A stretch of 64,000 nt of DNA, from contig NW_015167060.1 of assembly GCF_001447785.1 (NCBI RefSeq), positions 765,697 to 829,696 of the forward strand. The letters run 5' to 3'. The translations under genes and the position numbers were made by a program. Every line of letters begins with the position of its first letter. Position 1 is the stretch's first letter. Under the pieces are notes generated by a model. It searched no databases and was not told the origin of the DNA. It saw nothing but the letters and a program-made list of their open reading frames with translations. This DNA comes from Gekko japonicus (lineage: Eukaryota). This document shows, in pieces, positions 4,135-18,553 of this stretch.

Positions 4135-4275
4135 CGTTCTGATCCCAGGCTGCTGTCACAGTTCTTCTATGCTGATGAGAGAGTGACTCAAGTGGTAAGG
4201 GAGATCAATTGTCTGGATGTGGAGACAGATCCTCAGCAGTACCTGGTGCTACTAAATCAGCTGCACCTTAGTCAG
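4135..4275 (+). CDS. ZFYVE28-like exon (first seen)
   Basis: ttcag|CGTTCT...CAG|gtaag; [15 protein letters not shown]...LHLSQ. Confidence 0.9.
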
Positions 4276-16200: not shown

Positions 16201-18553
16201 CTCTGTCTCCTTGCCTGACCTCCAAGAACAGTTCAGCCTAGCTTCTTAAGGGTCTATTAGGCATAGCCGGTGGGAGGTGGGGGCTGTTTTGGCTTGGCTG
16301 GTATCTTAGCTTTGGTCTTTGATTTGCAGTCAAATAGAGGTTTTGCTAGCAGTTTCCTGTTTGCTTTGCAGTGGGTTTCCCCACTTGAGGTGCTGCATTG
16401 TCTCAGCTTCAGTTTGGCCTACTCAAAAGGACTCTGGAGTTTTAGTCGACAGTGCCTTGTTCACTGCTGAGACTGTACAATTTTATTTCACCATTAACTA
16501 GCACATCTCTGTTTACTATGTGTGTATCCAATTCCGAACACAGCCACAGAGTGTAGATTAAAAAATCAACGCAATTGGAGCAGATACAAATTGGGGGACC
16601 TGGAAACTCCAAGTTTGCAGAAAAAAGTTAGCTAAAAACCACAAAGGAATGGGGGGTTAATGTTAATTTTTACGAAGAAGAAGAGATTGTATTCATACCC
16701 CACCCTTCACTACCCAAAGTCTTGCGAAATTACCTCAGGAGATCTCAGCAGCCATTGTGAATTGCCTAGGCAATCCCTGACACCATCATTAGTGTTGTGT
16801 GTGCTTGCTTAGGTAATCCAAAAGAGCTGGTGCATTTCATTTTAAAACCTGAGATGAGTTGGGTGGTGGGAAAGTAGGAGCGGGCAGGCAGGAAAGACAA
16901 CGATGAGGTGGAAATAAACCTAGAGTTGGTGTGGGGGGGGAGAAAAATTGAGCAAAAGGTGAGGGATAAAGGTTGTAGGAGGGAACGGAAGCACGGAAAG
17001 GCTAGAAACTGTGGCTGGGTGAGGAGGAGGAAAAGAAGGGTAGTTGAGATAGTGTGAAGAAGAGGACTGGTTGCAGGGAGTGAGATGTATGGGCCTCTAG
17101 TATTTACTCTCAATGGATGGGGGGTTATAGCTCTGTCAGTCTTCAAAAGAAGCACAGCCAAGTCACCAGCTGCCCTTCTGCCCCTTTTTCAGACACATTG
17201 GAACCACCGGAGTGGGTGCCAGACAGCACTTGCAGTCATTGCATGGCTTGCCGTGTGCCTTTTACTTTTCTTCGTCGACGACACCACTGTCGGAGTTGTG
17301 GGAAGGTAAGGGATTGGTTGCTGCTCATAAACCTGCAAACAGCTTAATTCTGGGGGAAGGGAAAAACAAGGTTTGGCAGGCAGTAGACATGAGTGTGCTT
17401 TCCCTATGTGTAGGGTAGCCCAGGCCCATAGCCAGGATTTTGTGACTTGTGAGGCCAAAAATGTTTTGGTGGGGCTGCCATTATTTGCCACAATGGGGCG
17501 GGGTGGTGTGGCACACATTCCTCTCCCTCCTCTCAGGCACGATTTAAGAGGTCCTTCAGCTGATCAGTGGGGAGCACCTAGCCCACCGATCAGCTGGAGA
17601 GCCCTTTAAATCTTGCAGGAGAGGGAGAGGATCCCTTTAAATGCTTTTGGGAAGAAGCGGGGGGCCTTTAAGAGGCTGGGCCCTTCAAGAGAGGGGGCTG
17701 GCCCTTTAAGGAAGGGGGCAGAGCCACCAATAGCCCCACCATAGCTGCAGGCCAGGGGTAGCCTATGCTGGGGGCAGTAGTTGGAGTAGAGAACTTTCTG
17801 GAAAGATTCCTTTCAGTGACATGATGCTGCGAATGAATCCCTTAGTGGTCCCTTAGCTGAAGTACAGAGATTTATCACAGCCAGGTGGGACAAGTGGGTA
17901 GAACTAGCAATTGCCAGTGGTGCCGCTCTGGAGGGGGAATGGAACAAGGGTGACATTCTGAGTGGCATAATGGGTTCAAGGAAAGGACTTGAAATTAATC
18001 TTGCTGGTTATGTAGGGCCATGTTGGCGTGAGACTGGTACTGGCTAACAGTTGCTTGTGATTTGAGACTTGACACATGGATGGGTGCATTCTTAGGACAG
18101 CATATCTATGCCGCCGCCACCCCCCCCAACATGTGAAGAGTTAGCATGATGTAGGGGTTAGAGTACCAGACTTTGGGAGTCCCAGGTTTGAATCCCCACT
18201 CTGTCATGGAAGCTTGCTGGATGACCTTGGGCCAGTCACATAGTCTCATTCTAACCGAACTCACAGGGTTGTTGTGAGGATAAAATATAGAAGGGGGAGA
18301 ATGTTCTAAGCCGCTTTGGGTCGCCACTTGGGGAAAAAGTGGGGAATTAATGCAATAAGTAAATAAGTGGGGCTTGCAGAACTGGGTTACCTTATCTGAT
18401 GCCCAGTTTATTTCCTTACAGATCTTCTGCTCTCGCTGTTCATCACACTTGGCACCTCTGCCCCACTTCAGGCAGCTGAAGCCAGTCCGCATCTGTACTC
18501 ACTGCTACACCACTCACTTACCTTCTACCCATAAAGATGCCAGCGGCTTGTGA
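4135..18553 (+). CDS. Lateral signaling target protein 2 homolog-like (ZFYVE28/LST2 paralogue), FYVE zinc-finger protein, 5'-partial. join(4135-4275,8091-8228,8653-8855,9218-9307,9564-9653,10335-10436,11155-11307,11928-12061,14948-15061,16066-16152,17193-17305,18422-18553)
   Basis: Spliced frame is open for 498 aa. It has LST2 motifs [65 protein letters not shown] and DCALC, and an intact FYVE ([19 protein letters not shown]). All introns GT-AG and phase-consistent. First coding exon not found in the window. Confidence 0.9.
4864..6003. mobile_element. Non-autonomous hAT element with a nested MITE at 5225-5444
   Basis: TIRs CAGGGCCAGCTC / GAGCCGGCCCTG; perfect 8-bp TSD CTACTGTG at 4856-4863 and 6004-6011. 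Confidence 0.85.
6337..6787. mobile_element. hAT-like element (TAGGGTTGCC family) inserted in an L2-like tail
   Basis: Perfect 8-bp TSD TTCCTGTG at 6329-6336 and 6788-6795. Confidence 0.85.
8091..8228 (+). CDS. ZFYVE28-like exon
   Basis: gccag|GCT...GAG|gtgag; [46 protein letters not shown]. Confidence 0.9.
8653..8855 (+). CDS. ZFYVE28-like exon
   Basis: ttcag|TGT...AG|gtatg; CLMART...RPLAKDLL...[10 protein letters not shown]. Confidence 0.9.
9218..9307 (+). CDS. ZFYVE28-like exon
   Basis: [33 protein letters not shown] flanks. Confidence 0.9.
9564..9653 (+). CDS. ZFYVE28-like exon
   Basis: [33 protein letters not shown] flanks. Confidence 0.9.
9982..10183. mobile_element. hAT MITE (CAGTGTTCCCTCTAAG family)
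   Basis: TIRs CAGTGTTCCCTCTAAG / CTTAGAGGGAACATTG; same family as 5225-5444 and 48443-48648. Confidence 0.85.
10335..10436 (+). CDS. ZFYVE28-like exon
   Basis: [37 protein letters not shown] flanks. Confidence 0.9.
11155..11307 (+). CDS. ZFYVE28-like exon (alternative in-frame donor at 11349)
   Basis: [16 protein letters not shown]...SVP; donor AAG|gtacgg is present twice. Confidence 0.75.
11928..12061 (+). CDS. ZFYVE28-like exon
   Basis: ttcacag| phase 2; ...[22 protein letters not shown]|gtaag. Confidence 0.8.
12614..12916 (+). mobile_element. 5'-truncated polyA-tailed retroposed fragment (L1-like 3' end)
   Basis: AATAAA plus A-rich tail; 19-bp TSD AAGGAGTGGATGGTCCTCC at 12595-12613 and 12917-12935. 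Confidence 0.75.
13450..13790. mobile_element. hAT-like element (TAGGGTTGCC family)
   Basis: Perfect 8-bp TSD GCTGGAAG at 13442-13449 and 13791-13798. Confidence 0.8.
14948..15061 (+). CDS. ZFYVE28-like exon
   Basis: [25 protein letters not shown]...; donor C|gtgagt. Confidence 0.88.
16066..16152 (+). CDS. ZFYVE28-like exon
   Basis: ttttcag| ...[12 protein letters not shown]... G|gtgag; phase 1-1. Confidence 0.8.
17193..17305 (+). CDS. ZFYVE28-like exon, FYVE N-terminal half
   Basis: [35 protein letters not shown]|gtaag. Confidence 0.92.
17421..17755. mobile_element. hAT-like MITE
   Basis: CAGGCCCATAGC terminus with a degenerate right TIR; perfect 8-bp TSD GGGTAGCC. Confidence 0.7.
18140..18366 (+). 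mobile_element. tRNA-derived SINE (Squam3-like)
   Basis: A/B-box-like head (GGTTTGAATCCC), GACCTTGGGCCAGTCAC core and AT-rich tail; similar to 41792-42297. Confidence 0.7.
18422..18553 (+). CDS. ZFYVE28-like last coding exon, FYVE C-terminal half
   Basis: [46 protein letters not shown] at 18551-18553. Confidence 0.92.
   Translation: MFCSRCSSHLAPLPHFRQLKPVRICTHCYTTHLPSTHKDASGL

What the first reader, a model, noticed from the sequence alone, without database searches (positions are those of the whole stretch)
4135..18553. Intact second LST2/ZFYVE28 gene next to MXD3: candidate ohnologue missing from the human locus
Seen: a fully open 12-exon LST2-family gene lies directly upstream of MXD3 on the same strand. 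It has a complete FYVE finger (WxxD, RRHHCR, RIC, four CxxC pairs) and a Lys at 8169-8171 in YVIKFPE. Known (from memory): human ZFYVE28 lies directly upstream of MXD4 on the same strand in the 4p16.3 NSD2/FGFR3 block, the paralogon of the 5q35 NSD1/FGFR4/MXD3 block. Human 5q35 has LMAN2 next to MXD3 and no ZFYVE28-like gene. The Lys aligns with K87, the monoubiquitination site that controls endosomal localisation of LST2, a negative regulator of EGFR. Inference: this is a whole-genome-duplication sister gene kept in reptiles, a second and essentially uncharacterised endosomal RTK regulator that automated annotation may label simply as LST2 homolog.
Basis: partly seen in the sequence, partly recalled or inferred. 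Interest (0 to 1): 0.72.

Follow-up and report, generated by a model that had tools for sequence, protein, structure and literature searches.

The report
Second LST2 gene lacking mTORC1 handle
This lizard gene is an intact, spliced second copy of the receptor-trafficking gene LST2/ZFYVE28, found from sharks to marsupials but apparently lost in placental mammals; it lacks the segment through which mTORC1 controls human LST2, so it likely sorts growth-factor receptors on endosomes independently of that nutrient switch.

Summary
Twelve AG/GT exons give an open frame identical to residues 15-512 of database protein P0002; a 13th (first) coding exon lies 16.6 kb upstream of the window. All 11 junctions appear in RNA. 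The genome has a second locus, the true ZFYVE28, followed on the same strand by MXD4-type exons. A tree splits the family into two clades that each run from sharks to mammals; exons 2-7 have identical lengths in both loci. So this is an ancient duplicate, very likely a genome-doubling ohnologue. Corrections: it is not reptile-specific (shark, gar, coelacanth, lungfish, amphibians, birds, platypus, marsupials), and its existence beside MXD3 was noted in 2011 (PMC3177325). New here, as far as my searches show: no placental copy was found; the gene sits in the interval where the LMAN2-FAM193B block is inverted in human and cattle; and the whole clade lacks the central segment with the TOS motif and S670 that put human LST2 under mTORC1 control (0 of 155), while keeping K87 (204 of 204) and the FYVE finger. 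Function is inferred, not tested.

The parts
4135..4275 (+). Coding exon 2 of the LST2 paralogue (exon 1 lies outside the window, at G000:C7350:749064)
   Evidence: junction to next exon in RNA
8091..8228 (+). Coding exon 3; holds Lys88 (8169-8171), equivalent of human K87
8653..8855 (+). Coding exon 4, helical core
9218..9307 (+). Coding exon 5, helical core
9564..9653 (+). Coding exon 6, helical core
10335..10436 (+). Coding exon 7, helical core
11155..11307 (+). Coding exon 8, 153 nt; in the true ZFYVE28 of this genome the frame that starts at the same point stays open for about 490 codons and carries the TOS motif
11928..12061 (+). Coding exon 9: end of the short linker, start of the C-terminal helices
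14948..15061 (+). Coding exon 10, conserved helices
16066..16152 (+). Coding exon 11 (skipped in database isoform P0001)
17193..17305 (+). Coding exon 12: first half of the FYVE finger (WxxD, RRHHCR)
18422..18553 (+). Coding exon 13: second half of the FYVE finger and stop
18554..19206 (+). 3' untranslated region, at least to here
   Evidence: contig of run X1 and read depth in X22
27545..33049 (+). MXD3, neighbouring gene (name recalled; HLH family match tested)
34044..37897 (-). PRELID1-type gene, block marker
   Evidence: PF04707; limits read from sequence
38997..47012 (+). RAB24-type small GTPase gene, block marker (name recalled)
   Evidence: Ras family match; limits
57300..64000 (-). 3' end of NSD1-type gene, block marker
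   Evidence: PF17982 C5HCH

Best explanation
This is an expressed, ancient sister gene of ZFYVE28/LST2 that keeps the helical core, the K87 lysine and a complete FYVE finger but lacks the central segment that mTORC1 docks on and phosphorylates in human LST2, so it likely binds PI3P on early endosomes and steers receptor tyrosine kinases towards degradation without mTORC1 control. Shown: gene structure, splicing, second locus, two clades, absence of the TOS/S670 segment. Inferred: origin in a vertebrate genome doubling (about 0.9), loss in placental mammals (about 0.8), loss tied to the LMAN2-FAM193B inversion (about 0.5), PI3P binding (about 0.9, from the intact motif), action on RTKs (about 0.55, by analogy to human LST2), freedom from mTORC1 control (about 0.65). 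It would behave like the human F401A or S670A mutants, which sit on endosomes, unless another signal triggers K88 ubiquitination. The confidence given is for the functional reading; the identity as a real paralogue is about 0.95.
For: Open 13-exon gene. 11 of 11 junctions in contigs of run X1 and in raw reads of X22 (38 reads), 7 of 11 in X21, 1 of 11 in X23. Second locus on C10228. Exons 2-7 have the same six lengths in both loci; pN 0.27 against saturated pS 0.84. Tree: paralogue clade 21 rows 100/100, ZFYVE28 clade 8 rows 94/96, each from sharks to mammals, invertebrates outside. Both loci lie in MXD/NSD blocks. Against other squamates the core is 90-98% and the FYVE 90-99% identical, the linker 37-81% (8 proteins). 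The alignment to human LST2 covers residues 5-316 and 706-887 only, while the second locus matches human 268-664 and has FLIDD opposite the human TOS. TOS-like motif in 0 of 155 readable paralogue linkers (of 210 proteins); Lys in 204 of 204 readable sites. Hagfish and amphioxus carry central motifs and the whale-shark paralogue a weak remnant, so the segment was lost in this clade. Human LST2 mechanism: PMC11348030; FYVE dependence: PMC10603069.
Against: No functional data on the paralogue; no receptor or lipid binding was tested. The Lys sits in a motif found in nearly all invertebrate LST2 too, so it does not show ubiquitination. In human cells TOS-less LST2 is short-lived, so a TOS-less paralogue may be unstable or differently controlled. 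Predicted short isoforms of the true ZFYVE28 in seal, dog and two sharks also lack most or all of the central segment, so TOS-less LST2 is not unique to this gene. The paralogue clade evolved about 3 to 9 times faster than ZFYVE28 (1.6 against 0.25 changes per site in this genome), which allows a changed function. Read depth is low in all three raw-read runs. Placental absence rests on protein searches of limited depth (best 120 of 182 hits, lengths 225-718), in which an echidna copy was not listed either. Hagfish placement is weak (85/69), so first or second doubling is open. Whether the TOS itself predates the duplication is open: hagfish has no consensus TOS, and the TOS-like motif of amphioxus lies on the other side of the shared motif.
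Confidence: 0.55

Rival explanations
1. Real ohnologue with a diverged job: it still sits on PI3P membranes but no longer regulates RTKs, or it acts as a competitor or partner that tunes ZFYVE28.
For: Long stem branch (0.56) and faster evolution of the whole clade; loss of the central segment; dispensable in placentals; only 57% identity to the sister gene over exons 2-7.
Against: Core and FYVE are strongly conserved within the clade; invertebrate LST2 proteins also lack the vertebrate TOS (PMC11348030), and C. elegans LST2 is described as an EGFR regulator (PMC10603069).
Confidence: 0.27
2. Real ohnologue that is still under mTORC1 or ubiquitin control by another route (non-TOS docking or another kinase), so the missing segment changes little.
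For: Lys88 invariant in 204 of 204; the S670E mutant of human LST2 stays inhibitor-sensitive, so other inputs exist; only a few mTORC1 substrates have a TOS.
Against: Cryo-EM saw LST2 bound only through the TOS; the other candidate sites, S334 and S368, also fall in the part of human LST2 without a counterpart here.
Confidence: 0.13
3. Ancient segmental duplication of the block rather than a whole-genome doubling.
For: Linkage of the second locus rests on two contigs joined only by a split MXD4-type gene; FGFR linkage and gene order in sharks were not tested.
Against: Several families are paired across the two blocks (LST2, MXD, NSD), timing falls between amphioxus and the shark/bony-fish split, and PMC3177325 ties Mxd3/Mxd4 regions to the two doublings.
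Confidence: 0.04
4. Translocated orthologue of ZFYVE28, or a decaying pseudogene.
For: Databases give it the same name as ZFYVE28; low read depth.
Against: A second, better orthologue exists in the genome; open frame, spliced RNA and strong conservation.
Confidence: 0.01

Closest known systems
Human ZFYVE28 / LST2 (PDB chain 9f43_G; PMC11348030, PMC10603069)
   Same: Helical core, K87-equivalent lysine, C-terminal FYVE finger; E 3e-157; the same lengths of exons 2-7 as the ZFYVE28 of this genome; position upstream of an MXD gene on the same strand.
   Different: 512 against 887 residues; no counterpart to human 317-705, which holds TOS 401-405, S334, S368 and S670; separate clade that evolves faster; sits beside MXD3, not MXD4; not found in placentals.
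'ZFYVE28*', unnamed duplicate beside Mxd3/Prelid1 (PMC3177325, Fig. 3 legend and synteny section)
   Same: Very probably this gene: same neighbours, same reading as a paralogous region.
   Different: In the passages I saw it is only a synteny marker: no gene tree, range, loss, domain or motif analysis. I could not see the figure, so which species it shows is unknown to me.
RefSeq/UniProt models 'lateral signaling target protein 2 homolog' of about 500-780 residues in non-placental vertebrates (P0002, P0352 chicken, P0344 opossum, P0137 platypus, P0297 whale shark)
   Same: P0002 is identical to this gene's product; the others are its orthologues by tree or cluster.
   Different: They carry the name of ZFYVE28 and are not marked as a separate paralogue.
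Xenopus laevis 'zfyve28-like1' (PMC5974320)
   Same: A ZFYVE28-like gene with maternal mRNA and blastula protein.
   Different: I could not test whether it is this paralogue.
PI3P-binding FYVE proteins (EEA1, Hrs, Vps27, endofin)
   Same: FYVE fold and motifs; rmsd 0.9-1.6 A to Vps27 and endofin FYVE.
   Different: Likeness is confined to the FYVE finger.

Membership tests
LST2/ZFYVE28 family (paralogue level) | N-terminal helical region and pre-FYVE helices homologous to LST2 | tested here: met
   341.5 and 191.6 bits to 9f43_G
LST2/ZFYVE28 family (paralogue level) | C-terminal FYVE finger | tested here: met
   PF01363 79.7 bits, cut-off 27.8
LST2/ZFYVE28 family (paralogue level) | Lysine at the K87 position | tested here: met
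   gap-free alignment; 204 of 204 in the clade
ZFYVE28 orthologues (mTORC1 substrates) | Groups with mammalian and zebrafish ZFYVE28 | tested here: not met
   separate clade 100/100; the C10228 gene is the orthologue
ZFYVE28 orthologues (mTORC1 substrates) | TOS motif and central segment with S670 | tested here: not met
   0 of 155 linkers; profile of the segment finds nothing in six frames of window 11001-15100
ZFYVE28 orthologues (mTORC1 substrates) | K87 monoubiquitination; negative control of EGFR | not testable with these tools
   needs cell assays
FYVE domain | WxxD, R(R/K)HHCR, RVC-like motif, eight Cys | tested here: met
   sequence; WxxD plus RRHHCR in 131 of 178 clade proteins, 45 models have no FYVE part, 2 deviate
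FYVE domain | PI3P binding and endosomal location | not testable with these tools
   inferred from motifs only
Whole-genome-duplication ohnologue | Both copies in paralogous blocks | tested here: met
   LST2-MXD-NSD on C7350; ZFYVE28-MXD on C10228 continuing as MXD-NAT8L-type-NSD on C15175; the two contigs are linked only by the split MXD gene
Whole-genome-duplication ohnologue | Duplication after amphioxus, before the shark/bony-vertebrate split | tested here: met
Whole-genome-duplication ohnologue | Shared intron positions (not a retrocopy) | tested here: met
   six of six exon lengths compared are equal
Whole-genome-duplication ohnologue | Assignment to the first or second doubling | tested here: inconclusive
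   one hagfish sequence, outside both clades at 85/69
Whole-genome-duplication ohnologue | Linkage to FGFR4 / FGFR3; same block in shark and gar | not tested
   no search made for FGFR; no other vertebrate genome on hand
Functional gene | Open frame, spliced transcript | tested here: met
Functional gene | dN/dS below 1 between orthologues | not testable with these tools
   no orthologous coding DNA on hand; protein conservation and paralogue pN/pS used instead

The most novel reading that the evidence does not exclude
Jawed vertebrates had two LST2 receptor sorters, one wired to mTORC1 and one that shed the mTORC1 handle; placental mammals lost the unwired one at a chromosomal inversion in 5q35, leaving LST2-type control of EGFR and insulin receptor under nutrient signalling (or handing the job to short ZFYVE28 isoforms), while birds, reptiles and marsupials keep a nutrient-independent brake that could bear on their different insulin responses.
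Probability: 0.2. Interest if true: 0.68.

Novelty: new variant of a known kind. Interest (0 to 1): 0.42.

Why it matters
[quoted passage not shown] A natural, conserved version without the TOS/S670 segment is a ready-made test of what the core and FYVE finger do alone, in chicken, frog or opossum cells. It also warns that 'LST2 homolog' in non-placental genomes names two different genes, which affects knockouts, expression studies and orthology tables. The gene marks a candidate breakpoint of a placental inversion in the Sotos-syndrome region. It is still one more hidden ohnologue, already noticed once in print, so interest is moderate.

Tried and rejected
A candidate extra exon at 14759-14811 was dropped: in the needed phase it has a stop and RNA joins 12061 to 14948 directly. 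A hidden central exon was sought with a profile of the ZFYVE28 segment in six frames of window 11001-15100: none; the frame past the exon 8 donor closes after about 36 codons. Fold searches gave only FYVE matches by Foldseek; VIA gave nuclear-receptor ligand-binding domains for residues 184-392 at Z up to 8.9, rmsd 4-5 A, under the level the tool calls meaningful for helical domains, so no claim is made; the domain was not folded alone. ESM Atlas gave only LST2 clusters. The RGS family search showed no hit on C7350 and was not used. No run was listed as a certain RNA holder by the index; the evidence comes from laying reads. Expression of the true ZFYVE28 locus in the same runs was not obtained, so relative expression is open. 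Paper searches for a treatment of the paralogue: searches found only PMC3177325 and PMC5974320; the library lacks most subscription journals. The two cattle LOC genes between FAM193B and TMED9 could not be identified. PMC9629404 gave no usable passage. Earlier scan findings: none at this place or sequence; the word search returned unrelated genes. The score-based binning put 4 of 178 proteins (whale shark, bichir) nearer ZFYVE28; the tree places those species' proteins in the paralogue clade and they were included in the census. That census counts isoforms and close relatives, not independent events.
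Full report
Observation. Twelve exons between 4135 and 18553 have AG acceptors, GT donors and consistent phases, and their frame is identical to residues 15-512 of database protein P0002. The first coding exon is outside the window, at G000:C7350:749064 near a CpG-rich stretch, so the gene has 13 coding exons. 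The FYVE finger passes Pfam's cut-off. Lys88 at 8169-8171 aligns without a gap to human K87. Laying four runs on 3900-19500 showed all 11 predicted GT..AG junctions in the contigs of X1 and in raw reads of X22 (38 reads), 7 of 11 in X21 and 1 of 11 in X23; depth was low and only part of each raw run was read.

Two loci. A search of the genome with one exon gave 2 matches: the window and C10228 (46% identity). The C10228 gene has the same lengths for exons 2-7, 57% protein identity over them, pN 0.27 and saturated pS 0.84. It has a long central frame of about 490 codons that matches human LST2 268-664. Downstream on the same strand lies an MXD exon; the following MXD exons are at the start of C15175, which goes on to a NAT8L-type acetyltransferase exon and an NSD gene. 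The two contigs are linked only by this split gene; the names MXD4, NAT8L and NSD2 are recalled, the families were tested. The window gene is followed by MXD3, PRELID1, RAB24 and NSD1 types. An alligator model that fuses this protein to an MXD tail (P0088) shows the same adjacency in a crocodilian.

Tree and range. A maximum-likelihood tree of 38 chosen proteins (472 columns) gives a paralogue clade of 21 rows at 100/100 and a ZFYVE28 clade of 8 rows at 94/96, with 8 invertebrate-type rows (4 named) outside and hagfish weakly outside both (85/69). The paralogue clade holds whale shark, bichir, gar, arapaima, coelacanth, lungfish, salamanders, frogs, squamates, turtle, gharial, birds, platypus and marsupials (names). 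Seal and human-like ZFYVE28 rows fall in the other clade. From the split, the paralogue has run 1.6 changes per site against 0.25 for its sister in this genome. With a marsupial query, the best 120 of 182 hits held 7 marsupial and 1 platypus proteins and none named as placental (lengths 225-718 only; no echidna copy was listed either). Among 145 further representatives at 50% identity, 27 scored best with the paralogue panel and none of these best with a mammalian row. The 36 genes listed for the human region include no ZFYVE28-like gene (PMC12989897 Table 1). Placental loss is thus likely but not shown at genome level.

A breakpoint. On C7350 the order is TMED family (280 kb), LMAN2-type lectin (294-296 kb), SLC34 (380 kb), DOK (646 kb), FAM193 (682-719 kb), this gene (749-784 kb), MXD3, PRELID1, RAB24, NSD1 (names by family and position). 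In human the order is NSD1, RAB24, PRELID1, MXD3, LMAN2, SLC34A1, DOK3, FAM193B, TMED9, and a cattle gene list runs the same way (PMC7601430, one table passage). The LMAN2-FAM193B block is therefore inverted between the two, and one breakpoint lies in the FAM193-MXD3 interval that holds this gene. That the lizard order is ancestral is inferred from the recalled closeness of FAM193A to ZFYVE28 at human 4p16.3. In that table MXD3 and LMAN2 are 3 kb apart and FAM193B and TMED9 37.6 kb, so remnants are more likely in the second gap. Whether inversion and loss were one event is untested.

Anatomy and mechanism. Human LST2 binds RAPTOR through a TOS motif (401-405), is phosphorylated on S670, then ubiquitinated on K87, stabilised and spread over a reticular pattern; F401A, S670A and K87R forms are endosomal and short-lived; knockout raises EGFR (PMC11348030, parts 1-3 of 4 read, supplements not seen). 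The FYVE finger is needed for endosomal location and insulin-receptor degradation (PMC10603069, passages). The window protein aligns to human 5-316 and 706-887 only. TOS-like motifs are present in the full-length ZFYVE28 of this genome, echidna, zebrafish, pike and desman and in 0 of 155 readable paralogue linkers out of 210 proteins, while the lysine is kept in 204 of 204 readable sites (isoforms and close kin counted). Hagfish matches the central segment (E 3e-15 and 8e-9), amphioxus shares one motif, and the whale-shark paralogue keeps a weak trace (E 0.004): the segment was there before the duplication and was lost in this clade. The AlphaFold model (mean pLDDT 85.3) shows a helical body, a disordered loop near 293-321 and the FYVE finger; structural alignments span 184-392 as one unit, which fits the central segment being a loop inserted in one domain. 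I therefore commit to an endosomal, PI3P-binding receptor sorter outside mTORC1 control (0.55). Against it: nothing functional was tested, the lysine motif is family-wide, the clade evolves fast, and predicted short isoforms of ZFYVE28 in seal, dog and sharks lack the segment too.

What is known. PMC3177325 (passages only, figure not seen) already calls it an unnamed duplicate of ZFYVE28 beside Mxd3 and Prelid1 and reads the Mxd3 and Mxd4 regions as paralogous. Databases model it under the name of ZFYVE28. PMC5974320 (passages) mentions a Xenopus zfyve28-like1 that may be this gene. Searches for a treatment of its range, loss or missing TOS found none, within a library that lacks most subscription journals.

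Verdict. Observation confirmed, interpretation partly supported. A real LST2 paralogue, not a ZFYVE28 orthologue; a new variant of a known kind; interest 0.42.

Noticed in passing
window 31190-32119: A 465-base tandem duplicate (463 of 465 identical) repeats an MXD3 bHLH exon. Similar near-identical doubles occur at 11301-11383, 20582-20906, about 25200-25950, and in exon 2 of ZFYVE28 on C10228 (59402 and 60406), so an assembly artefact is likely.
   Followed up: partly
L004:45-162 (G000:C7350:745741-745858, +): A GC-rich, exon-like stretch 3.2 kb upstream of the first LST2-paralogue exon reads as a signal-peptide-like start with a GT donor in phase 1, which does not fit exon 2 of this gene; its gene is unknown.
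   Followed up: no
P0318 residues 881-930 (amphioxus LST2): A motif shared with vertebrate ZFYVE28 is followed by a TOS-like FYMED in a similar acidic context (seen in 0.3% of shuffles); PMC11348030 describes the TOS as vertebrate-only on the basis of fly and worm. The order of motifs differs from vertebrates.
   Followed up: partly
model mcb84c94b3ac9 residues 184-392: Many nuclear-receptor ligand-binding domains align at Z 6-8.9 over about 120-155 residues; may be only a common helical arrangement.
   Followed up: no
P0193, P0333, P0153, P0158: Predicted ZFYVE28 isoforms of seal, dog and two sharks skip most or all of the central TOS segment.
   Followed up: partly
window 11972 and 17237: RNA reads differ from the window at two coding places (A335D in the linker, H447N beside the first zinc ligand), present in X22 and X1; at 17237 X21 shows the window's base, so probably polymorphisms.
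   Followed up: partly
P0293, P0296: Salamander paralogues have linkers of 917 and 1173 residues, against 75 in this gene, still without a TOS-like motif.
   Followed up: no
representative search: Among ray-finned fishes the paralogue turned up only in bichir, gar and arapaima; a second loss in other teleosts is possible but was not tested.
   Followed up: no
window 57300-59192 (-): The last NSD1 exon carries a 42-base tandem repeat encoding repeated 14-residue units.
   Followed up: no
window 1-480: Minus-strand remnant that reads like a retroelement gag region; observed only.
   Followed up: no
cattle gene list in PMC7601430: Two unnamed genes, LOC509184 and LOC100139419, lie between FAM193B and TMED9, where remnants of this gene might be expected; not identified.
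   Followed up: partly
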